DNA of 64,000 nt. It comes from an uncultured cyanobacterium (GTDB lineage Bacteria > Cyanobacteriota > Cyanobacteriia > PCC-9006 > JAAUQQ01). Below are positions 1 to 41,321 of the stretch, in pieces. The stretch covers positions 6,031,824-6,095,823 of the forward strand of contig OY970368.1 in assembly GCA_963718615.1 (NCBI GenBank), in the 5' to 3' direction. Both the position numbers and the translations under genes were made by a program. How positions within the stretch are numbered: the stretch's first letter is position 1; every line of letters begins with the position of its first letter. The notes beneath the pieces were generated by a model. That model made no database searches. It was not told the DNA's origin and saw only the letters and a list, made by a program, of their open reading frames with translations.

Positions 1-913
1 GCAGCCGCCCCACAGCCCAGAAGCCAAAACCTTTGATCGGGTTTTCAACGAATACCGCCAACAATCCCTCCCAACCCCATCCCGTAGGGACGAACAGCCG
101 TTCGTCCCACCCCCGCCACAGCCACAGCCTCCACCAATCCCACAGCCCACCCCCTGGCCACCCCCCATCCCCCCGCGCAAAAAAACGCCGGATTCCCAAG
201 CCCAGCCAGACCCAAAAGCCCATGAAAAAGCTCCGGTCGCGGTACGGGCCGAGGCAAAACCTGAGGCAATGTCCAATCTGCATCCATTTCGGCTGGAGCC
301 AAGGGATCTACCCGTTTCCCTGGAGCAGGTGCAAATGAGCTGGCGCATGTTGCGGCGTCCGGTGGCGGAGGGGCCAGCGCGGGAGTTGGATTTGGAGGCG
401 ACCCTTCGACGAATTGGCAGCGAGGGCCTGTTTGGCGATGTGGTCTTGCGTCCGGTGCGGCGACGGCGGGCGGAGCTGTTGCTGCTGGTGGATGAGGCCG
501 GGGCGATGGTGCCATTTCGGCCTGCCTTGGGGCCGCTGCGGCGGGCCATGCAGGAAAGGCGGGTTTCCCCTGGGGTGGAATATCGCTTTACGGCCTATCC
601 CGAGGAGTATGTTTATGACCCGCAAAACCGAGGACAGGCGCTGCCGCTGCGGCAGGTGGTGTCTCGGTTGCACGAAAAGCGGACAGTGGTGATGATCTGG
701 AGTGATGGGGGCGCGGCGACAAGGCGCTATAGCGAGGAACGGGTGCGGCAAACCATCGCGTTTTTGGGTCGGCTGTTGCCCTGTGTGCGCCAGGTGATTT
801 GGCTGAATCCGTTGCCGAGGGAGCGCTGGGCAGAAAGTTCTGCCGCTGCCATTGACCAATATTTAGCCGCCACCCCAACCGGCCAAATGATTCCGTTTTC
901 CGAGTTCAAATGA
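1..913 (+). CDS. vWA-domain protein (CoxE/SAV_2336-like, MoxR-vWA ternary system type), 5'-truncated by window edge
   Basis: Frame 2 is open from base 2 (QPPHSPEAKTFDRVFNEY, Pro-rich linker) into ORF 269..913. Motifs ELDLEATL, LLLLVDEAGAMVPF (degenerate MIDAS), WSDGGAA and WLNPLP. Confidence 0.8.
   Translation, partial: QPPHSPEAKTFDRVFNEYRQQSLPTPSRRDEQPFVPPPPQPQPPPIPQPTPWPPPIPPRKKTPDSQAQPDPKAHEKAPVAVRAEAKPEAMSNLHPFRLEPRDLPVSLEQVQMSWRMLRRPVAEGPARELDLEATLRRIGSEGLFGDVVLRPVRRRRAELLLLVDEAGAMVPFRPALGPLRRAMQERRVSPGVEYRFTAYPEEYVYDPQNRGQALPLRQVVSRLHEKRTVVMIWSDGGAATRRYSEERVRQTIAFLGRLLPCVRQVIWLNPLPRERWAESSAAAIDQYLAATPTGQMIPFSEFK
84..108 (+). repeat. REP-like palindrome, family 2 (GTAG-GGACGAAC-agcc-GTTCGTCCC), read in frame inside the vWA gene
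   Basis: 5' GTAG tetranucleotide followed by a 9-bp stem. The same core recurs at 60244-60315. Confidence 0.65.
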
Positions 914-937
914 CCCATCGAACATAACCCGCCAAAT

Positions 938-2518
938 ATGACCAGCCGGACCAGCCAACAAATCCAAGCCTTTGAACGGCGCTATGGGACAGCGACGCTG
1001 GATTTGGCCTGCCATGGAGCGTTTCCGCTGACGCTGACGACGGAGTTGCTCTATTGTTTGCGGGAGCAGTTTAATTTGGATTGCGACTGGTATGGGGCGG
1101 CGGATGTGTTGCTGTCGGGGTTGTGTCGGTCGGTGGGGCACGACCTGTATGAGATGGATGGCCCTTTGCGCAATGCGCTGTTGTGGCGGCTGGCGCAGCG
1201 GCTGGAGCAGCGGTTTCCGGAGCGTTTGGAAGAGTTAGAAGCATTCATGGTGGCCTATATTCGCCATCGTTTGCAGGTGGAGGAAAATCGGCGGGCGCTG
1301 GTGCTGGGGGATCCGGAGCGGATGCACTGGACGGCGTTGGCCTGTTTGCGGTCTGAGGAAGCGATCGAAGCGATTCGTCAGGATTTGCAGCGGCTGACGG
1401 CGGCGGATGTGAACCCGGAGGAGCGGTTTCGGTTGGCGGCGTTGGTGGAGAGTTATGGGGATTTTTTGGCGGAGCAGGATTATCGACCTGTGCTGCTGGA
1501 CTGGGCAGAGAAGCTGGCGGAGGGGGAGCCGATTGATGGGCGGGCGGCGGCAGTAGCGACGGCGGCAGCAGCGGCAGCGCGGGCGGGGTTTCCGGCGTTG
1601 AAGACGTTGGAGTTTGAGCTGGCGGAGATGGTGTTGGGCGAGGATGGGCCGGATTTGCCGATTGAGCAGTTGGGAAAATTTCGGTTTGAGACAGTGACAG
1701 TGGATCGGCGGGGACGGATCAAGAAGCGGGAGGAGAAGGAGGCGTTTTATTTTGTGGAGCCTTTGGGGGAGGCGGGGCCGTTTTTGGAGATGGTGGCGGT
1801 GCAGGGCGGCAGGTTCATGATGGGATCGCCAAAAGATGAGCCGGGACGGTGGGATTCTGAGGGGCCGCAGCATGAGGTGGTGGTACCGAGTTTTTTTATG
1901 GGGCGGTATCCGGTGACCCAGGCACAGTGGCAGGCGATTGCCCAAACCTCGAAGGTGAAGCACGATCTGGAACTAAACCCATCTCACTTCAAAGGGAAAG
2001 ACCGTCCCGTGGAGCGGGCGTATTGGCAGGATGCGGTGGAATTTTGTGCGCGGCTGAGCCGGGAAACGGGGCGGGAATATCGCTTGCCGAGCGAGGCGGA
2101 GTGGGAATATGCCTGCCGAGCGGGGACGACGACGCCGTTTCATTTTGGGGAGATGATTACCCCTGGGCTGGCGAACTACAACGTTAGCTCTGCCTATAAC
2201 AAGGGGCCAAAGGGTCAATATCGAAAAGAAACGACCCCGGTGGGAAGTTTTCCGGCCAATGGGTTTGGGCTCTGTGACATGCATGGGAATGTCTGGGAAT
2301 GGTGTGCAGATCACTGGCATGAGAACTATGAGGGAGCACCGACAGATGGAAGTGCTTGGCTAGAAAAAGACTCTAAGTTGCATGTACAACGCGGCGGCTT
2401 CTGGAAACGTCGTCCCAAGAGTTGCCGCTCCGCGTCCCGCTACTTCAGCCACTTTCTCGCGCCCCGCCACTTCAGTTTCGGTTTTCGAGTGATGTGTGTT
2501 TTGCCGAGGACTCCCTAG
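938..2518 (+). CDS. FGE-sulfatase (SUMF1/C-type lectin fold) protein with N-terminal helical domain typical of vWA-linked genes; putative DGR target
   Basis: C-terminal motifs [37 protein letters not shown] and RGG..W...GFRVMC. N-terminal LACHGAFPLTLT...LLSGLCRSVGHDLYEM. Confidence 0.9.
   Translation: MTSRTSQQIQAFERRYGTATLDLACHGAFPLTLTTELLYCLREQFNLDCDWYGAADVLLSGLCRSVGHDLYEMDGPLRNALLWRLAQRLEQRFPERLEELEAFMVAYIRHRLQVEENRRALVLGDPERMHWTALACLRSEEAIEAIRQDLQRLTAADVNPEERFRLAALVESYGDFLAEQDYRPVLLDWAEKLAEGEPIDGRAAAVATAAAAAARAGFPALKTLEFELAEMVLGEDGPDLPIEQLGKFRFETVTVDRRGRIKKREEKEAFYFVEPLGEAGPFLEMVAVQGGRFMMGSPKDEPGRWDSEGPQHEVVVPSFFMGRYPVTQAQWQAIAQTSKVKHDLELNPSHFKGKDRPVERAYWQDAVEFCARLSRETGREYRLPSEAEWEYACRAGTTTPFHFGEMITPGLANYNVSSAYNKGPKGQYRKETTPVGSFPANGFGLCDMHGNVWEWCADHWHENYEGAPTDGSAWLEKDSKLHVQRGGFWKRRPKSCRSASRYFSHFLAPRHFSFGFRVMCVLPRTP
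2390..2518 (+). other. Putative DGR variable repeat VR1
   Basis: Aligns to 4991-5116. Differences cluster at codon positions 1-2 of NNC/NNT codons between invariant CGC GGC GGC, TGG, TGC CGC TCC GCG TCC CGC and GGT TTT CGA. Confidence 0.8.
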
Positions 2519-2563
2519 CCCTCTGCTCTTTTGCCCTCTTGCCCTTTGGGCTGTTGGGTTGCT

Positions 2564-2578
2564 TCGCGCGGAGCGCGA
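2564..2578 (+). promoter_or_regulatory. GC stem / GGA triloop hairpin downstream of VR1 (DGR target-recognition hairpin-like)
   Basis: TCGCGC-GGA-GCGCGA, beginning 46 nt after the stop. Counterpart at 5161-5175. Confidence 0.7.
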
Positions 2579-2665
2579 TCAAAATTTTTGGGGGTTTGGG
2601 GTGTTCGGTGGGGGTGATTCCTCTCGGTGGAACGGCAGGTGATCGAAAATGTCGCGGCGGAGACG

Positions 2666-3244
2666 GTAGGTTGGCGTTGAACGAACGTGAAACCCAACAT
2701 GCTCCAACCATGGCTTTGCCCGTTATCCACCAACCATGGCTTTGCCCGTTATCCACCAACCATGGCTTTGCCCGTTATCCACCAACCATGGCTTTGCCCG
2801 TTATCCACCAACCATGGCTTTGCCCGTTATCCACCAACCATGGCTTTGCCCGTTATCCACCAACCATGGCTTTGCCCGTTATCCACCAACCATGGCTTTG
2901 CCCGTTATCCACCAACCATGGCTTTGCCCGTTATCCACCAACCATAGCTTTGCCCGTTATCCACCAACCATGGCTTTGCCCGTTATCCACCAACCATGGC
3001 TTTGCCCGTTATCCACCAACCATGGCTTTGCCCGTTATCCACCAACCATGGCTTTGCCCGTTATCCACCAACCATGGCTTTGCCCGTTATCCACCAACCA
3101 CGGCTTTGCCCGTTATCCACCAACCATGGCTTTGCCCGTTATCCACCAACCATGGCTTTGCCCGTTATCCACCAACCACGGCTTTGCCCGTTATCCACCA
3201 ACCATGGCTTTGCCCGTTGGGTTTCGTGCCTCAACCCAACCTAC
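2666..3244. repeat. REPIN 1 (inverted REP pair, family 1) enclosing a 26-bp tandem array
   Basis: GTAGGTTGGCGTTGAACGAACGTGAAACCCAACA at 2666-2699 and inverted GTTGGGTTTCGTGCCTCAACCCAACCTAC at 3216-3244. Confidence 0.85.
2704..3218. repeat. Tandem repeat, unit CCAACCATGGCTTTGCCCGTTATCCA (26 bp), 19 full copies plus 21 nt
   Basis: Direct reading. Only three variant bases seen (2946, 3101, 3179) and no spacers. Confidence 0.95.
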
Positions 3245-3266
3245 GGGTAATTGTTTTGGCCCAATT

Positions 3267-3411
3267 GTAGGTTGGTGTTGGACGAACGTGAAACCCAACA
3301 GCCTGAGGGAGGGCGATCGCAAAGGATCATGGATGACTCAATCATGATTTTCGTACGGGCGATTTCCCCCTTGCTTAAGCTTGTTGGGTTTCGTGCCTCA
3401 ACCCAACCTAC
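3267..3411. repeat. REPIN 2 (inverted REP pair, family 1)
   Basis: GTAGGTTGGTGTTGGACGAACGTGAAACCCAACA at 3267-3300 and inverted copy at 3382-3411. Confidence 0.85.
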
Positions 3412-3447
3412 GAGGGTTGATGTGTGGGTTAATTCATTATGATTTTC

Positions 3448-3990
3448 CTAGGGACGATCGCCTATGGGTGGCTCGAAATGATGCGCAGGGGCAGCCCAAC
3501 TGTGAGGATAATACCCTTGGTTGACATAGCGATGAAAACTAGAATAAGGCCAATCTTTAGGAGCCTTGACCCATCCATGTTTGACCGGATTGTAATGAAT
3601 GTAGTCTAGGTGATTTGCCAGATCCAATTCATCGCGAATACAATGCTCCCAAAAGCGCCGTTGCCATACATTTCGTTCTTGTTTACTCTGCCGAGACAGG
3701 GAAATCACTTCTGTAGACTCACGGGGATAATGGCGGCTGAAATGGCCTTTAATTAATCTCCAGCGAGTTGAAAAATTAGCATCACCCTCCGGTAACGTCC
3801 AAATGCAATGAAGATGATCAGGCAAAATGACAGCCGCATCAATGATGAAGGGATGCTTGGTGCGCACAGACCTAAAGGACTGACGGAGAATAGCAATATG
3901 CTCTGGATCTTGGAAAAGGGGGCGGCGATCGCTCGTTACCACCGTAAAAAAATAGGTTCCTCCAGAGACTTTGGCGCGACGGTATTGCAT
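3448..3990 (-). mobile_element. rayT: REP-associated tyrosine transposase (RAYT/TnpA-REP, Y1 HUH endonuclease)
   Basis: Motifs GGTYFFT, HUH in PDHLHCIW, WQRRFWEH and catalytic-Tyr region YIHYNPVKHG. Flanked on both sides by GTAG-REP pairs. Confidence 0.92.
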
Positions 3991-4044
3991 AAAGGCGATC
4001 GCAAAGGACTGCTCCTAAAATTCCCATTCAAAACCCCATAACCC

Positions 4045-4274
4045 GTAGGTTGGCGTTGAGCGTAGCGAAACCCAACGGTTTTGGGGGCGATCGCCGGGGT
4101 TGTTGGGTTTCATTATGGGGGTTTTTGGGGAGGGGCGATCGCAAGGGCTGTTGGGTTTCATTATGGGGGTTTTTGGGGAGGGGCGATCGCAAGGGCTGTT
4201 GGGTTTCATTATGGGGGTTTTTGGGGAGGGGCGATCGCAAGGGCTGTTGGGTTTCATTCTTCAACCCAACCTAC
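4045..4274. repeat. REPIN 3 enclosing a 48-bp tandem array (~3.6 copies; starts 4084, 4132, 4180, 4228)
   Basis: REP at 4045-4076 and inverted REP at 4245-4274. Unit GGGGCGATCGCAAGGGCTGTTGGGTTTCATTATGGGGGTTTTTGGGGA contains HIP1 and part of the REP arm. Confidence 0.85.
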
Positions 4275-4312
4275 AATTGAGCTGTTGGTTTTTGTTTTTG
4301 GGGATCATCATC

Positions 4313-5116
4313 ATGGCGGAACTGACGATCAAACGCAGCATCAGAACGGCCCAATATTTCACCGAAGACTTAGGAAACGGGGTTGGACTGGATATGGTGC
4401 TAATTCCCGGTGGAACCTTCCTGATGGGCTCCCCAGAAGACGAGCCAGAACGGTGGGACGATGAAGGTCCGCAGCATGAGGTGACGGTGCCGAGCTTTTT
4501 CATGGGACGCTACCCGGTGACCCAAGCCCAATGGACAGCAATTGCCCAGAAGCGGAAGAGCAACCGCAAACTGGAACTGGATCCATCAGGTTTCAAAGGG
4601 GCAGATCGCCCGGTCGAAAACATTGAGTGGGACGACGCCATGGAGTTTTGCGCTCGATTAAGCCGAGAGACGGGACGGGAATATCGTTTGCCGAGCGAAG
4701 CGGAATGGGAGTACGCCTGCCGAGCGGGGACGACAACACCGTTTCATTTTGGCGAAATGATCACGACCGAGCTAGCTAATTACAACGGTAGTGGCTACAA
4801 CGGTGGCCCCGAAGGAGAATCTCGACAGGAGACAACCCCAGTGGGTAGCTTCCCAGCCAATGGATTTGGGCTCTGTGACATGCATGGGAATGTCTGGGAA
4901 TGGTGTGCAGATAACTGGCATAAAAACTATGAGAGAGCACCGGCGGATGGAAATGCTTGGTTAGACAAAGACTCTGGAATGTATGTACAACGCGGCGGCT
5001 CTTGGTTCTTCGCTCCCAGGATTTGCCGCTCCGCGTCCCGCGACGACTTCAGTCTCGCGCTCCGCAACAACGGTCTCGGTTTTCGAGTGATGTGTGTTTT
5101 GCCGAGGACTCCCTAG
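4313..5116 (+). CDS. Stand-alone FGE-sulfatase/C-type lectin fold protein; putative DGR target
   Basis: Likely start ATG 4313 (MAELTIKRS), since the upstream part of ORF 4100 is repeat-derived. Full FGE motif set, paralogous to the C-terminal half of 938..2518. Confidence 0.88.
4991..5116 (+). other. Putative DGR variable repeat VR2
   Basis: TGG TTC TTC GCT CCC AGG ATT TGC...CGC GAC GAC TTC AGT...CGC AAC AAC GGT CTC GGT TTT CGA shows an NNC/NNT pattern with residual AAC AAC. Confidence 0.82.
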
Positions 5117-5160
5117 CCCTCTGCTCTTTTGCCCTCTTGCCCTTTTGGCTGCTGGCTGTT

Positions 5161-5175
5161 TCGCGCGCAGCGCGA
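5161..5175 (+). promoter_or_regulatory. GC stem / GCA triloop hairpin downstream of VR2
   Basis: TCGCGC-GCA-GCGCGA, beginning 45 nt after the stop. Stem identical to 2564-2578 and loop also GNA. Confidence 0.7.
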
Positions 5176-6027
5176 TCAAATTTTCTGCCCCCCCAACACC
5201 CCATACACAATCGTCTTTTCCCGAAACCCCTGCTGCATCAACCGCACCGCAAACGCCCCCCGAACCGTCATCCAACCACTCGTCAACACCCCCAAAATCG
5301 CCTGGGGACTCAGCGCCGACTCCAACACCACATCCCAAAACGGGGCCACCGCCTCCGACCAATCCGCCGTTTGCAAATTTTCCAGGGGTAAGGTCTTGGC
5401 CATACTGGCATAATCCCCCAAGGAAACCACAAAAGGCAGATGATACAACTCATAGATTTCCTGCAACAGCCTCGTCTCCGCCGTTGTCAGCGCCGGTGGG
5501 AGCTCCCGATGACACCAGGTCGCCACGATCAGTTTCCCCCCCGGCCTCAGCACCCGACAACATTCCGCCAAAAACTGCTGCTTATCCGGCATGTGCTCCC
5601 CACTTTCCAGCGACCACACCAGATCAAAACTGGCATCGGCAAACGGCATTTCCAAGGCATTCTCCACCTGAAAATTGACCCGGTGGGCAATCCCCGCCTC
5701 CGCCGCCCTGGCGCGCGCCCGCTGAGCTTGGGTCGGGCTCAGCGTAATGCCTGTGCCATCGGCCCCAAAGCGGCGAGCCAAATAGAGCGTGCTGCCCCCA
5801 ATGCCACAGCCCACATCCAAAATCTCTTGCGCCTCCGTCACCCCCGCCCAACGGAGCAACGCTTCAATTAGGTCAATTTGGGCCTGCCGCCGCTCCTTCG
5901 GCTCCTGGCCATCCGGGCCATAGTAGCCATGGTGCATGTGCTCACCCCAAACCTGCTCCCAGAGCCCCGAAGAGGCATCATAAAACGCTTGGATGCGGCG
6001 GTAGAGTGCAGTCGTCGTTGCGGTCAT
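5176..6027 (-). CDS. Gamma-tocopherol methyltransferase-like SAM methyltransferase
   Basis: FYDASSGLWEQVWGEHMHHGYY, ILDVGCGIGGS and LESGEHMPDK motifs. Confidence 0.85.
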   Translation of the reverse strand: MTATTTALYRRIQAFYDASSGLWEQVWGEHMHHGYYGPDGQEPKERRQAQIDLIEALLRWAGVTEAQEILDVGCGIGGSTLYLARRFGADGTGITLSPTQAQRARARAAEAGIAHRVNFQVENALEMPFADASFDLVWSLESGEHMPDKQQFLAECCRVLRPGGKLIVATWCHRELPPALTTAETRLLQEIYELYHLPFVVSLGDYASMAKTLPLENLQTADWSEAVAPFWDVVLESALSPQAILGVLTSGWMTVRGAFAVRLMQQGFREKTIVYGVLGGQKI

Positions 6028-6124
6028 TGAGAGCCCCTTTAGATTGCCATGTTGTCCAGTATGCGCTACATCTCATCATGGAAGATCTATCCGATGACGC
6101 TTGAAAGCGGGAATTGTGAGCGTT

Positions 6125-6610
6125 ATGGAGTTTCATGGCAAAGTGATTTTGGGGATTGATCCGGCGATCGCCTCCATCGGTTACGCCGCCATTTGCGATG
6201 CCACCGTGATCGACTACGGCGTGATCAAAACCCCCGCCTCAGCCAATCTGTACGATCGCCTCAAACAAATTCATCTGGATATCTGCGAACTCTGTACGAT
6301 CGTCAAACCCGAAATCGTCGCCCTAGAAATGCCCTTCTTTAGCCGCGAAAACACCAACGCCAACAAGGTTTTGCGAGCGCTAGGGGTGATTCAAATGGCC
6401 CTAGGGGATTCTGGATTGCCGGATCCGATTTTTCTGCACCAATCCCAGGTGAAATCCGCCGTGGCTCAGTATGGAGCCGATAAGGGGGAAATTCAACTGG
6501 CGGTGGCATTTTTGTTTAATTTGTCGTCTCCGCCCAGACCGGACGATGCGGCGGATGCTTTGGCGATCGCCTACGCCGCCCAGATCGGAATGCGGGCGAA
6601 TGTGCGATAG
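6125..6610 (+). CDS. ruvC: Holliday junction resolvase RuvC family
   Basis: ILGIDP, ALEMPFF and PDDAADALAIA catalytic motifs. Start 6125 (ATG) or 6101 (TTG). Confidence 0.85.
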   Translation: MEFHGKVILGIDPAIASIGYAAICDATVIDYGVIKTPASANLYDRLKQIHLDICELCTIVKPEIVALEMPFFSRENTNANKVLRALGVIQMALGDSGLPDPIFLHQSQVKSAVAQYGADKGEIQLAVAFLFNLSSPPRPDDAADALAIAYAAQIGMRANVR

Positions 6611-41226: not shown

Positions 41227-41321
41227 GTAGGTTGGGTTGAACGGAGTGAAACCCAACAAGCATTAAGCTAGGCATAATCGGGTTTTGCTGTTGGGTTTCG
41301 CAAGGGCTCAACCCAACCTAC
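41227..41321. repeat. REPIN (family 1) between gltB and gltD
   Basis: GTAGGTTGGGTTGAACGGAGTGAAACCCAACA and inverted TGTTGGGTTTCGCAAGGGCTCAACCCAACCTAC. Confidence 0.85.

What the first reader, a model, noticed from the sequence alone, without database searches (positions are those of the whole stretch)
2519..4312. HUH tyrosine transposase (RAYT) and three REPINs sandwiched between the two DGR targets
Seen: the interval between VR1 and the second target holds only an intact-looking RAYT and six GTAG-REPs in three inverted pairs. Established: RAYTs nick ssDNA near REP hairpins, and the DNA-integration step of DGR retrohoming is poorly understood. Inference (speculative): the RAYT/REP module may duplicate or shuffle CLec target cassettes, may have displaced the DGR core genes, or may act with them as a combined diversification locus. 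Chance insertion is also plausible.
Basis: partly seen in the sequence, partly recalled or inferred. Interest (0 to 1): 0.7.

Follow-up and report, generated by a model that had tools for sequence, protein, structure and literature searches.

The report
REP transposase replacing a dead DGR core
Between two formerly hypermutated sensor genes, a hairpin-repeat transposase and its repeats sit where relatives keep the mutator's reverse transcriptase, and the same takeover recurs in other cyanobacteria.

Summary

The flanking FGE/CLec genes are former DGR targets. In 4 of 11 informative orthologous loci of other cyanobacteria, avd, RT and TR lie between the same two genes. This genome has no RT, Avd or TR at the locus, so the RAYT module sits where the DGR core used to be. 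No orthologous locus (0 of 15) has a RAYT.

The placement is unlikely to be chance. In 7 of 92 other cyanobacterial RAYT loci the RAYT lies within about 1 kb of a CLec target. Five of these show truncated avd or RT, or a TR; a sixth is a deeper deletion of one of them. They involve three REP families and need at least 7 state changes on the RAYT tree. In this genome, 7 of 8 DGR-type CLec genes have a REP within 500 bp, and three carry an in-frame REP where cassette homology begins.

A joint RAYT-DGR diversification machine is not supported. Why REPs collect at these flanks is inferred, not shown. This scan earlier noted RAYT/REP elements beside DGRs on other DNA. I rate this a new variant of a known kind (mobile elements eroding and shuffling DGR loci).

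The parts
2..913 (+). 3' part of a vWA (VWA_CoxE) gene. The gene starts about 170 nt before the window. Upstream of it in the genome lie an iSTAND gene and a MoxR-like AAA gene.
   Evidence: Pfam PF05762. An orthologous vWA gene precedes FGE1 in 13 of 15 relatives' loci.
84..107 (+). REP2 copy (GTAGGGACGAAC..GTTCGTCC family) inside the Pro-rich N-terminal part of the vWA ORF
   Evidence: Pattern search of the genome, genome position 6031907-6031930
938..2518 (+). FGE1: former DGR target, N-terminal domain plus C-terminal FGE/CLec domain, 526 aa
   Evidence: PF03781 E 3.9e-56. Orthologue of G007 target 1, 65% identity over the N-domain.
2388..2479 (+). VR1, frozen variable region, followed by a conserved IMH-like stretch at 2480-2518
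   Evidence: VR1 and VR2 differ at 20 of 29 columns where the relative's TR has A, and at 5 of 60 other columns. Alignment.
2519..2590 (+). Conserved post-VR flank: CT-rich tract and a 6-bp GC hairpin with GGA loop (2564-2578)
   Evidence: 92% identical to the flank of VR2 (D3 and D8). Fold -7.9 kcal/mol, z -2.1. Homology to relatives ends at 2590.
2666..3244 (.). REPIN A: REP 2666-2698 (+) and REP 3216-3244 (-) around a 26-nt x 19.8 tandem array (2704-3218)
   Evidence: The 26-mer occurs nowhere else in the genome.
3267..3411 (.). REPIN B: REP 3267-3299 (+) and REP 3383-3411 (-), 83-nt spacer
3448..3990 (-). RAYT / TnpA_REP, 180 aa, HUH and Tyr motifs intact. It is convergent with FGE1.
   Evidence: Only one other, 30%-identical, match in the genome.
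4045..4274 (.). REPIN C: REP 4045-4076 (+) and REP 4246-4274 (-) around a 48-nt x 3.6 tandem array (4084-4258). The array repeats a half-REP plus a HIP1 site.
4313..5116 (+). FGE2: former DGR target, CLec-only, 267 aa. VR2 is about 4989-5077. Post-VR hairpin at 5161-5175.
   Evidence: PF03781 E 2e-63. 71% identical to G007 target 2..

Best explanation
SHOWN.
- The locus belongs to a conserved cyanobacterial arrangement: iSTAND, MoxR-like AAA, vWA, [N-domain-CLec target], avd, RT, TR, [CLec-only target].
- In this genome the avd-RT-TR core is gone. No RT or Avd exists anywhere in the genome.
- The core's place (2591-4312) is filled by a REPtron: one intact RAYT/TnpA_REP gene with three REPINs of its own GTAG-REP family. 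The two variable regions are therefore frozen relics.

HOW THE MODULE WORKS (from the family's established biochemistry, not tested here). The RAYT is a single-strand-DNA HUH/Y1 nuclease-ligase. It binds GTAG-tagged REP hairpins and spreads REPINs. There are about 56 REP copies in this genome.

SHOWN.
- The placement follows a pattern. RAYTs lie within about 1 kb of CLec targets in 7 of 92 other cyanobacterial RAYT loci. Five of the seven carry truncated avd or RT, or a TR, and a sixth is a deeper deletion of one of those. Three different REP families are involved, and the RAYT tree needs at least 7 changes of state.
- Two REP families of this genome are enriched beside DGR-type CLec genes.

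INFERRED.
- The 3' flank of a VR (CT-rich tract plus GC hairpin, prone to single-strandedness or cruciform extrusion) is a favoured landing or retention site for REP hairpins.
- Once REPs are seeded there, the RAYT gene, itself flanked by REPINs, can relocate to the site by REP-REP recombination or by its own strand transfer.
- REP-REP deletions then eat into the core.
- REP pairs also mark the ends of CLec cassettes that were copied onto different N-terminal domains.
For: Synteny.
- Own flanks align to G007:C106 on both sides. Homology stops at 2590 and resumes at 4313.
- In G007 that gap holds TR, Avd (NF033474, 135.8 bits) and RT. TR versus VR differences fall at 8 of 18 and 9 of 18 A columns and at 0 of 36 non-A columns.
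- Of 15 relatives' loci, 11 are informative: 4 have avd+RT, 2 have partial cores and 5 have the targets adjacent. 0 of 15 have a RAYT.

Loss in this genome.
- PF00078: 0 candidates in a 100%-complete genome.
- tblastn with the G007 DGR RT: best E 0.44.
- Avd: none; best 13.1 bits against an 80-bit cut-off.
- No remnant of the core in 2519-4312 beyond the first ~72 nt (the conserved post-VR flank, to 2590).

Survey.
- Top 80 non-self class-wide RAYT matches: a CLec domain lies within about 1 kb in 5 of 80, and only 1 more lies at 1-10 kb.
- 15 cyanobacterial loci: 2 more (L015, L018). Three loci are shared between the two sets, giving 7 of 92.

Junctions.
- Avd is cut at about aa 62 exactly at a REP (L172) and at about aa 47 beside a REP of another family (L179).
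- A RAYT with a third REP family lies between a VR flank and an RT fragment, aa 152-253 (L186).
- VR, TR, then REPINs and RAYT in L146 and L015.

Other support.
- RAYT tree of 151 sequences: 9 adjacent RAYTs need at least 7 changes.
- Own genome, REP1: 3 of 37 loci within 500 bp of a CLec domain against 0.13 expected, P 0.0002. Intergenic-only null: 3 of 31 against 0.08, 0 of 5000 shuffles.
- Own genome, REP2: 4 of 46 against 0.16, 0 of 20000 shuffles.
- 7 of 8 DGR-type CLec genes have a REP within 500 bp.
- A second dead DGR locus carries three REPs plus a TR remnant, 85% identical to G007's TR.
- An intact DGR (L131) already has REPs behind both VRs.
- A second G320 remnant has a REPIN between avd and RT.
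- RAYT positions differ among family relatives.
Against: - Most cases show no link: 85 of 92 cyanobacterial RAYT loci have no CLec gene within 1 kb, and 0 of 15 orthologous loci have a RAYT.
- Core loss needs no RAYT (5 loci).
- In G320 the REP enrichment is not repeated outside DGR remnants. 0 of 2 other DGR-type CLec genes have a listed REP within 10 kb, though only 100 of 135 REPs were listed.
- REP3 of this genome shows no enrichment (0 of 18).
- Under the intergenic-only null, REP2 is weak (1 of 23, P 0.05). Without the RAYT locus, REP1 rests on 2 loci (P 0.0036).
- Kin are not independent: L015/L146 and L160/L172 are pairs.
- A dead core is neutral DNA where any insert can persist, so retention rather than targeting could give part of the signal.
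- No biochemical datum on this RAYT or on VR flanks exists here.
- The order of events (core lost first, or RAYT arrived first) cannot be read from this locus.
Confidence: 0.75

Rival explanations
1. Chance plus neutrality. The DGR core decayed for unrelated reasons, and the RAYT module happened to land or survive in the resulting junk DNA. There is no preference of RAYT/REP for DGR flanks.
For: - 5 of 11 informative orthologous loci lost the core without any RAYT.
- Dead DGRs also collect other inserts, such as a MITE-like insert in the G320 RT and an IS630 near RAYT-2.
- G320 shows no REPs at its other two CLec genes.
Against: - 7 of 92 RAYT loci lie within about 1 kb of CLec targets, but only 1 lies at 1-10 kb, a zone holding about 8 times more sequence.
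- At least 7 state changes on the RAYT tree and three REP families.
- REPs lie 42-158 nt behind the stop codons of intact remote CLec genes that never had a core beside them.
- An intact DGR already carries REPs behind both VRs.
- The intergenic-only null still gives 3 of 31 against 0.08 for REP1.
Confidence: 0.15
2. Functional co-option. The RAYT and its REPs now serve the orphan CLec genes as a recombination-based diversifier or cassette mover. This resembles what was proposed for TnpA_REP genes facing prochlorosin genes.
For: - The RAYT faces the VR end of the target (convergent) in 7 of 9 adjacent cases.
- CLec cassette homology among three fusion genes starts at an in-frame REP2. Identity is 45-57% before it, apart from 88% between L006 and caspase-FGE in the last 40 nt, and 81-96% in the REP2 and the first 100 nt after it; it then stays 77-87% for kinase/L006 but falls to 57-67% against caspase-FGE. 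In two genes the homology ends 63 nt or less after a downstream REP2 in the same orientation.
- Analogue in print: bioRxiv 10.1101/2020.03.09.984088 (passages read).
Against: - The REP-bounded cassettes use REP2, whose RAYT-2 is degraded and has REPs inside it, not this RAYT's REP1.
- No in-ORF REPs were seen at the CLec genes of 7 other RAYT loci.
- Junctions are destructive, with avd and RT cut.
- The authors of the prochlorosin preprint themselves withdrew the causal claim in a post-submission note.
- No population data show ongoing change.
Confidence: 0.1
3. The RAYT is a working part of, or was co-transferred with, the DGR, for example supplying the nick for cDNA integration.
For: Physical adjacency here. 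Earlier notes of this scan report RAYT-like genes beside DGR RTs in other phyla (unchecked).
Against: - This genome has no RT, Avd or TR for it to work with.
- 0 of 4 intact orthologous DGRs hold a RAYT.
- Relatives keep their RAYT on other contigs or Mb away.
- RAYT-adjacent cores are truncated.
Confidence: 0.03

Closest known systems
REPtron: TnpA_REP/RAYT with flanking REP/BIME or REPIN elements. Examples are E. coli TnpA_REP (PDB 4ER8) and Pseudomonas fluorescens SBW25 REPIN-RAYT. Papers PMC3333891, PMC3479197, PMC3116915 and PMC5581495 were seen only as search listings and abstract starts.
   Same: One gene of this family in the genome, HUH and Tyr motifs, cognate GTAG-tagged hairpins flanking it as inverted pairs and dispersed through the genome.
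   Different: It sits inside a former DGR. Two of its three REPINs are swollen by tandem arrays. The REP population is small (about 56 copies). RAYT positions differ among relatives of one family, whereas abstracts seen in the listing describe REPIN-RAYT systems as mostly vertically inherited.
Cyanobacterial DGRs with CLec/FGE targets linked to MoxR-vWA conflict systems. Vallota-Eastman 2020, PMC7517822: passages and supplementary file 4 read. Dore 2024, PMC10907252: passages read.
   Same: Same gene neighbourhood (iSTAND, AAA, vWA, long and short CLec targets). VR at the 3' end with a post-VR hairpin. The adenine-mutagenesis footprint is kept in the VRs.
   Different: No RT, Avd or TR. It is a relic, not a DGR.
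Transposon and MITE-driven decay and domain shuffling of DGR loci in Thiohalocapsa PB-PSB1 (PMC10907252, passages read)
   Same: Short repeat arrays and mobile elements delete the RT or redundant parts. CLec C-termini are recombined with different N-domains.
   Different: There the agents are IS elements with terminal inverted repeats and their MITE-like arrays, in one gammaproteobacterium. Here they are GTAG-REP/RAYT (Y1, single-strand) systems, recurring in several cyanobacterial families, with a REP read in frame in the linker.
IS200/IS605 hits near cyanobacterial variable proteins (PMC7517822; supplementary file 4)
   Same: Y1-type single-strand transposon sequences noted near 9 VPs of 6 species and proposed to disperse VPs.
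   Different: Those are ISFinder nucleotide hits, many only 28-54 nt long, in neighbourhoods of +/-10 kb or wider. In the passages and table rows I read, no RAYT, REP or REPIN is named and no enrichment test is given.
TnpA_REP genes facing prochlorosin (procA) genes in marine picocyanobacteria (bioRxiv 10.1101/2020.03.09.984088, passages read)
   Same: A RAYT convergent with the hypervariable 3' end of a gene family, with a hairpin in the spacer.
   Different: Different gene family, and no REPs were found there. [quoted passage not shown]

Membership tests
RAYT / TnpA_REP (REP-associated tyrosine transposase) | Y1 HUH transposase domain scoring above the curated family thresholds | tested here: met
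   PF01797 29.3 bits against 23. NF047646 219.1 bits against 80, while the IS200 model NF033573 scores only 23 against 55. 4ER8 E 3.5e-46.
RAYT / TnpA_REP (REP-associated tyrosine transposase) | HUH motif and catalytic tyrosine present | tested here: met
   H59, H61, Y130 and Y133 are invariant in 22 aligned members, own sequence first. They align to E. coli TnpA_REP.
RAYT / TnpA_REP (REP-associated tyrosine transposase) | Single copy per genome, unlike IS200 | tested here: met
   One 100% match plus one 30%-identical paralogue. Seven IS200-type copies are a separate group.
RAYT / TnpA_REP (REP-associated tyrosine transposase) | Flanked by cognate REP/REPIN hairpins that are over-represented in the genome | tested here: met
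   Six GTAG REPs in three inverted pairs around the gene. 56 loose copies in the genome. 12-mer count 23 against 0.73 expected.
RAYT / TnpA_REP (REP-associated tyrosine transposase) | Cleaves and joins single-stranded REP DNA | not testable with these tools
   Needs purified protein and oligonucleotides.
Diversity-generating retroelement (DGR) | DGR-type reverse transcriptase | tested here: not met
   PF00078: 0 candidates. tblastn with the relative's DGR RT: best E 0.44.
Diversity-generating retroelement (DGR) | Template repeat paired with VR, mismatches at TR adenines | tested here: not met
   No TR in 2519-4312. The only TR-like remnant in the genome lies at another locus, 5133895-5133983. 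The footprint survives: VR1 versus VR2 differ at 20 of 29 of the relative's TR-A columns against 5 of 60 others.
Diversity-generating retroelement (DGR) | Accessory protein Avd | tested here: not met
   tblastn finds none at E 0.01 or better. NF033474 best 13.1 bits against 80.
Diversity-generating retroelement (DGR) | CLec/FGE-fold target with the VR at the C-terminus, and a conserved 3' stretch plus hairpin behind it | tested here: met
   PF03781 in both genes. 92%-identical 3' ends and flanks. 6-bp GC hairpins with GGA or GCA loops.
REPIN | Two REPs in inverted orientation separated by a short spacer, with many copies in the genome | tested here: met
   REPIN B has an 83-nt spacer, and other pairs in the genome have 23-188 nt. 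REPINs A and C are atypical, with spacers of 517 and 169 nt filled by tandem arrays.
Autonomous IS200/IS605 insertion sequence | Multiple identical copies with their own left and right end hairpins, often with tnpB | tested here: not met
   Single copy. It scores below the IS200 model cut-off. No further ORF of 50 aa or more in 2519-4312 was tested or stands out; the other ORFs listed there overlap the repeat arrays, the REPs or the RAYT ORF.

The most novel reading that the evidence does not exclude
GTAG-REP/RAYT systems are specific colonisers and remodellers of DGR target flanks. The CT-rich tract and cruciform behind a VR, or the single-stranded intermediates of retrohoming there, would be a natural integration hot spot for RAYT-catalysed REP insertion. 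The consequences would run both ways. REPs and then the RAYT itself accumulate and delete avd-RT-TR, switching hypermutation off and freezing the sensors. REP pairs in direct orientation would also mobilise REP-linker-CLec-VR-hairpin-REP cassettes onto new N-terminal domains, with the REP read in frame as linker. In some DGRs a REP hairpin may even stand in for the target hairpin (L131).
Probability: 0.3. Interest if true: 0.8.

Novelty: new variant of a known kind. Interest (0 to 1): 0.62.

Why it matters
For DGR biology, this offers a concrete and recurrent route by which DGRs are switched off and their targets frozen. It also offers a candidate route by which CLec-VR cassettes reach new N-terminal domains. 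How new targets arise is discussed as an open question in PMC10907252.

For REPIN/RAYT biology, the abstracts seen describe these systems as single-copy and mostly vertically inherited. Here RAYT genes occupy different sites in relatives and repeatedly end up in one kind of locus. That makes the target preference of a RAYT testable with defined substrates: REP1 against the VR flank.

In practice, annotation pipelines could flag CLec genes with VR-like tails next to RAYT/REP as dead DGR loci, not remote targets.

Tried and rejected
- Remnants of the core in 2519-4312: blastn (word size 7) and tblastx against 15 relatives' loci gave only the post-VR flank and REP matches. One weak tblastx hit of the 48-nt array to RT (E 3.7e-4) I take as spurious.
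- Class-wide list of PF03781 positions for a proper background: unusable. Only 6 candidates per genome were scored and 950 rows were unlisted. I used the 1-10 kb flanks as an internal control instead.
- Family and order searches for more orthologous loci: only 8 genomes, one useful.
- Rfam on 1-6500 at E 0.1 or better: 0 matches.
- Sequencing runs: no RNA holder listed. Three metagenome contig sets held small shares (0.08-0.12). The part beside it showed only short pieces of REPs and conserved CLec motifs, mostly from other organisms, and nothing bridging the locus.
- Notes of this scan near the place: none.
- In-ORF linker REPs at CLec genes of 7 other RAYT loci: none found.
- REP enrichment in a second genome (G320): not repeated at its two other CLec genes.
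- Single ancient insertion inherited vertically: rejected because the tree needs at least 7 changes, there are three REP families and the junctions differ.
- L014, whose RAYT is 96% identical to L015's, shares one flank and the RAYT, but homology stops at the REPIN. That shows a breakpoint there, not the direction of the event.
- Literature: 0 papers hold both 'diversity-generating retroelement' and 'REP-associated tyrosine transposase'. Among 96 papers holding 2 or more of DGR, RAYT, REPIN, REP and IS200 (25 listed), only the prochlorosin preprint holds DGR together with RAYT. Subscription journals are outside the library.
Full report
WHAT IS THERE

The window is the last 64 kb of a one-contig, 6.10-Mb genome. 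The genome holds 17,664 GCGATCGC (HIP1) sites against 186 expected, and its nearest protein relatives are cyanobacterial. I therefore treat it as a cyanobacterium; this is an inference.

Between 2519 and 4312 lie the following parts:
- A conserved post-VR flank with a 6-bp GC hairpin (2519-2590).
- REPIN A (2666-3244), whose spacer is a 26-nt x 19.8 tandem array.
- REPIN B (3267-3411).
- A 180-aa ORF on the minus strand (3448-3990).
- REPIN C (4045-4274), with a 48-nt x 3.6 array.

The ORF is a REP-associated tyrosine transposase. It matches NF047646 at 219.1 bits (cut-off 80) and PF01797 at 29.3 bits (cut-off 23). It matches E. coli TnpA_REP, PDB 4ER8, at E 3.5e-46. Its HUH and tyrosine motifs are intact.

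Its REP (GTAG followed by an 8-bp stem) has 39 strict and 56 loose copies in the genome, about 19 of them as inverted pairs.

THE FLANKING GENES ARE FORMER DGR TARGETS

Both flanking genes carry PF03781. Their last ~100 coding bases and about 70 bases beyond the stop are 92% identical, although the genes overall are 81% identical.

The closest genome with an orthologous locus is G007, of the same family, with 65% identity over the N-domain. It aligns to both flanks, but homology stops at window 2590 and resumes at 4313. In G007 the gap holds three parts:
- A template repeat.
- Avd (NF033474, 135.8 bits).
- A DGR-type RT.

G007's TR differs from its two VRs at 8 of 18 and 9 of 18 adenine columns and at 0 of 36 other columns. 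This count covers the part of the VRs that my alignment held.

The window's VR1 and VR2 differ from each other at 20 of 29 columns where G007's TR has A, and at 5 of 60 other columns. They therefore carry the footprint of adenine mutagenesis.

THE CORE IS ANCESTRAL AND HAS BEEN LOST HERE

The N-domain of FGE1 finds relatives in 46 of 401 genomes of the class at E 1e-15 or better. I fetched the 14 best full-length hits, and G007's locus was already in hand. One search gave these results:
- 4 loci end at a contig edge and say nothing.
- Of the other 11, 4 have avd and RT between the two targets (four different family codes).
- 2 have partial cores: L130 has an Avd fragment plus TR, and L143 has Avd only.
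- 5 have the two targets adjacent.
- None of the 15 has a RAYT.

The own genome has no PF00078 match (0 candidates, completeness 100). It has no tblastn hit to the G007 DGR RT better than E 0.44. It has no Avd.

The locus is therefore a dead DGR whose core space is occupied by the RAYT module. Upstream lie iSTAND, a MoxR-like AAA gene and vWA. That is the context described for cyanobacterial DGRs in PMC10907252 (passages).

IS THE RAYT THERE BY CHANCE?

RAYT-centred survey. The family is present in 94 of 401 genomes of the class at E 1e-30 or better. I took the first 80 non-self rows in listed order and fetched about 9.7 kb on each side (1.31 Mb in all). tblastn gave these results:
- A CLec domain within about 1 kb of the RAYT in 5 of 80 loci (L146, L160, L172, L179, L186).
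- One more at 8.4 kb (L162).
- None in the other 74.

Among the 80 loci, 15 are cyanobacterial by their record titles, and 2 more of these have the arrangement (L015, L018). So does one gammaproteobacterial locus (L052). Three loci are common to the two sets, giving 7 of 92 cyanobacterial loci besides this one.

Seven hits lie within 1 kb and one lies at 1-10 kb, a zone that holds roughly eight times more sequence. By my own binomial estimate that is very unlikely under even spread, and it stays unlikely when the two kin pairs are collapsed. I did not run a formal phylogenetic correction.

Junctions:
- L172: Avd stops at about residue 62 exactly where a REP begins.
- L160 (same genus): all of Avd is gone.
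- L179: Avd stops at about residue 47 beside a REP of a different family (GTAGGGTGGGCA...), and a piece of the region that follows TR survives on the other side of the RAYT.
- L186: a third REP family and its RAYT lie between the VR flank and an RT fragment (residues 152-253), with an intact-looking TR further on.
- L146 and L015: VR, TR and the region behind TR are followed directly by REPINs of the same family as here and by a convergent RAYT, with no avd or RT.

On a FastTree of 151 RAYTs, the nine adjacent ones (own included) need at least 7 changes of state. This is not one inherited insertion.

One search looked for the DGR RT in the genomes behind these loci:
- G320 holds only an RT fragment.
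- G111 and G124 hold none, though their completeness is only 89-93.
- G318 and G139 keep intact RTs at other loci.

G320's RT fragment has a REPIN between avd and RT and a MITE-like insert inside RT.

REPs AND CLec GENES IN THIS GENOME

PF01797 finds seven IS200-type copies and three RAYT-like genes in the genome. The three RAYT-like genes are:
- RAYT-1, the one in the window.
- A degraded gene 470 nt downstream of a kinase-CLec gene. It has its own REPs inside and around it (REP2, GTAGGGACGAAC..GTTCGTCC).
- A third gene about 2.1 kb upstream of a caspase-CLec gene (REP3).

REP1 enrichment:
- 3 of 37 loci lie within 500 bp of a PF03781 domain, against 0.13 expected (P 0.0002).
- With random places restricted to intergenic DNA under a crude greedy-ORF mask, 3 of 31 against 0.08 (0 of 5000 shuffles).
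- Without the RAYT locus, 2 of 30 (P 0.0036).

REP2 and REP3:
- REP2: 4 of 46 loci against 0.16 expected (0 of 20000 shuffles).
- The intergenic-only version keeps 1 of 23 (P 0.05), because it drops copies inside ORFs.
- REP3: 0 of 18.

Gene by gene, 7 of the 8 DGR-type CLec genes have a REP1 or REP2 within 500 bp or inside them. The first downstream copy lies 42-158 nt behind the stop codon. None of the other four PF03781 genes has one within 5 kb.

A second dead DGR lies at genome 5.132-5.135 Mb. It has three CLec genes, three REP1 copies starting 42 nt behind one stop codon, and a truncated TR that is 85% identical to G007's.

Against generality: in G320, with 135 REP copies and three DGR-type CLec genes, only the RAYT-adjacent gene has listed REPs nearby. 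Only 100 of the 135 copies were listed.

REP-BOUNDED CLec CASSETTES

Three fusion genes (kinase-CLec and two caspase-CLec genes) each carry a REP2 in frame, about 50 residues before the CLec domain.

Identity between them is as follows:
- Before that REP2 it is at the level of unrelated sequence (45-57%). One pair reaches 88% in the last 40 nt.
- In the REP2 and the next 100 nt it is 81-96%.
- Further on it stays 77-87% for the kinase/L006 pair but falls to 57-67% against the caspase gene.

For the kinase gene and one caspase gene, homology runs through the stop codon, the CT tract and the hairpin. It ends 63 nt or less after a second REP2 in the same orientation. That is a unit of about 1.05 kb.

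This fits REP-mediated copying of CLec cassettes, by homologous exchange between REPs or by Y1 action on direct hairpin pairs. It does not prove either. I did not find the feature at the CLec genes of seven other RAYT loci.

In the intact DGR of G068 (L131), three REPs of yet another family fill the VR1-avd spacer. Behind VR2 lies a copy of a REP plus the first 27 nt of avd, ending at another REP. So REPs enter live DGRs and mark duplication ends there too.

HOW IT MOST LIKELY WORKS

Shown:
- The anatomy of the locus.
- The loss of the core.
- The recurrence of the arrangement.
- The enrichment of REPs near CLec genes in this genome.

Established for the family but not tested here: RAYTs bind and cut single-stranded GTAG-REP hairpins. 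I saw only listings and abstract starts for PMC3333891 and PMC3479197.

Inferred:
- VR flanks attract or retain REPs. Candidate reasons are the CT-rich tract with a GC hairpin behind every VR seen here and the single-stranded intermediates of retrohoming.
- REPs then bring the RAYT in and promote deletions.

That the target hairpin or cruciform is needed for DGR homing is recalled knowledge. It is echoed by a passage of PMC7517822.

COMPARISON WITH WHAT IS KNOWN

- PMC7517822 reports IS200/IS605 ISFinder hits near 9 variable proteins of 6 species and suggests they disperse VPs. The table rows I read are nucleotide hits, many of 28-54 nt, and do not name RAYT or REP.
- PMC10907252 shows IS elements and MITE-like arrays degrading and shuffling DGR loci in one gammaproteobacterium.
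- A preprint reports TnpA_REP genes facing prochlorosin genes, with the causal claim later softened by its authors.
- No paper in the library holds both 'diversity-generating retroelement' and 'REP-associated tyrosine transposase'.
- Earlier notes of this scan, unchecked by me, describe RAYT or GTAG hairpins beside or inside DGRs in four other genomes, including Patescibacteria. They suggest that the pattern is wider than cyanobacteria.

VERDICT

- The finding is real.
- The locus itself is an ordinary relic, a dead DGR.
- The company it keeps, RAYT/REP systems repeatedly lodged in DGR cores and bounding CLec cassettes, is a new variant of the known theme of mobile elements remodelling DGRs.
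- The mechanism of preference is open.

Noticed in passing
window 2704-3218: A 26-nt unit repeated 19.8 times at 98% identity fills the spacer of a REPIN. The unit occurs nowhere else in the genome. Its origin and function are unknown.
   Followed up: partly
window 4084-4258: A 48-nt x 3.6 array whose unit is a half-REP plus a HIP1 site (GCGATCGC). It looks like slippage or unequal exchange within a REPIN.
   Followed up: no
L005:5523-6075 (genome 5133522-5134074): A second dead DGR in the same genome. Three REP1 copies start 42 nt behind a CLec stop codon and cut its hairpin. A truncated TR lies at L005:5896-5984, directly upstream of a third CLec gene.
   Followed up: yes
genome 944474-944666 (minus strand): A truncated 3' fragment of a CLec gene (last ~35 codons, VR-like, with flank and hairpin). 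No CLec sequence lies upstream of it.
   Followed up: partly
L004:5709-6386 (genome 3706708-3707385): A degraded RAYT (NF047646 77.5 bits, below the 80-bit cut-off) with copies of its own REP2 inside the ORF. It lies 470 nt downstream of a kinase-CLec gene, with an IS630-type transposase about 800 nt beyond it.
   Followed up: partly
genome 3708698-3708721, 5505159-5505182, 3273926-3273949: REP2 hairpins read in frame as part of the Pro-rich linker about 50 residues before the CLec domain of three fusion proteins.
   Followed up: yes
L096:2453-4230 (G007:C106): In this relative, avd and RT are on the opposite strand to both targets and to the TR. In L131, L137 and L139 all parts are collinear. 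This points to an inversion of the avd-RT pair.
   Followed up: no
L131:330-660 and 3330-3700 (G068:C149): In an intact DGR, GTAG REP hairpins (GGTGCGTC..GACGCACC) stand where other targets have the usual GC hairpin behind the VR. The VR2 flank carries a copy of the first 27 nt of avd between two REPs.
   Followed up: partly
L146:9250-9400, L015:10690-10830, L179:4528-4602: A conserved stretch of ~150 nt behind the TR. It ends in CCGAGTCGGAT..TTGGTAGGTT, which contains a GTAGGTT string like the 5' end of REP1. I could not tell whether this is a REP-like seed.
   Followed up: no
window 41227-41321: Another REP1 inverted pair (REPIN) far from any CLec gene.
   Followed up: no
genome 6031470-6031643 (180-353 nt before the window): A REP1 inverted pair lies exactly in the spacer between the MoxR-like AAA gene and the vWA gene of the same system.
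   Followed up: no
L052:7611-10480 (Algibacillus agarilyticus): Outside cyanobacteria: two tandem CLec genes (79% identical) with VR-like tails are followed by GTAG REPs and a RAYT within 350 nt. No RT was seen in the 12.5 kb held.
   Followed up: partly
L225 (G139:C58) and L186 (G139:C8): Two RT fragments in one genome cover residues 152-254 and 253-345 on different contigs. They may be two halves of one RT split by a rearrangement.
   Followed up: no
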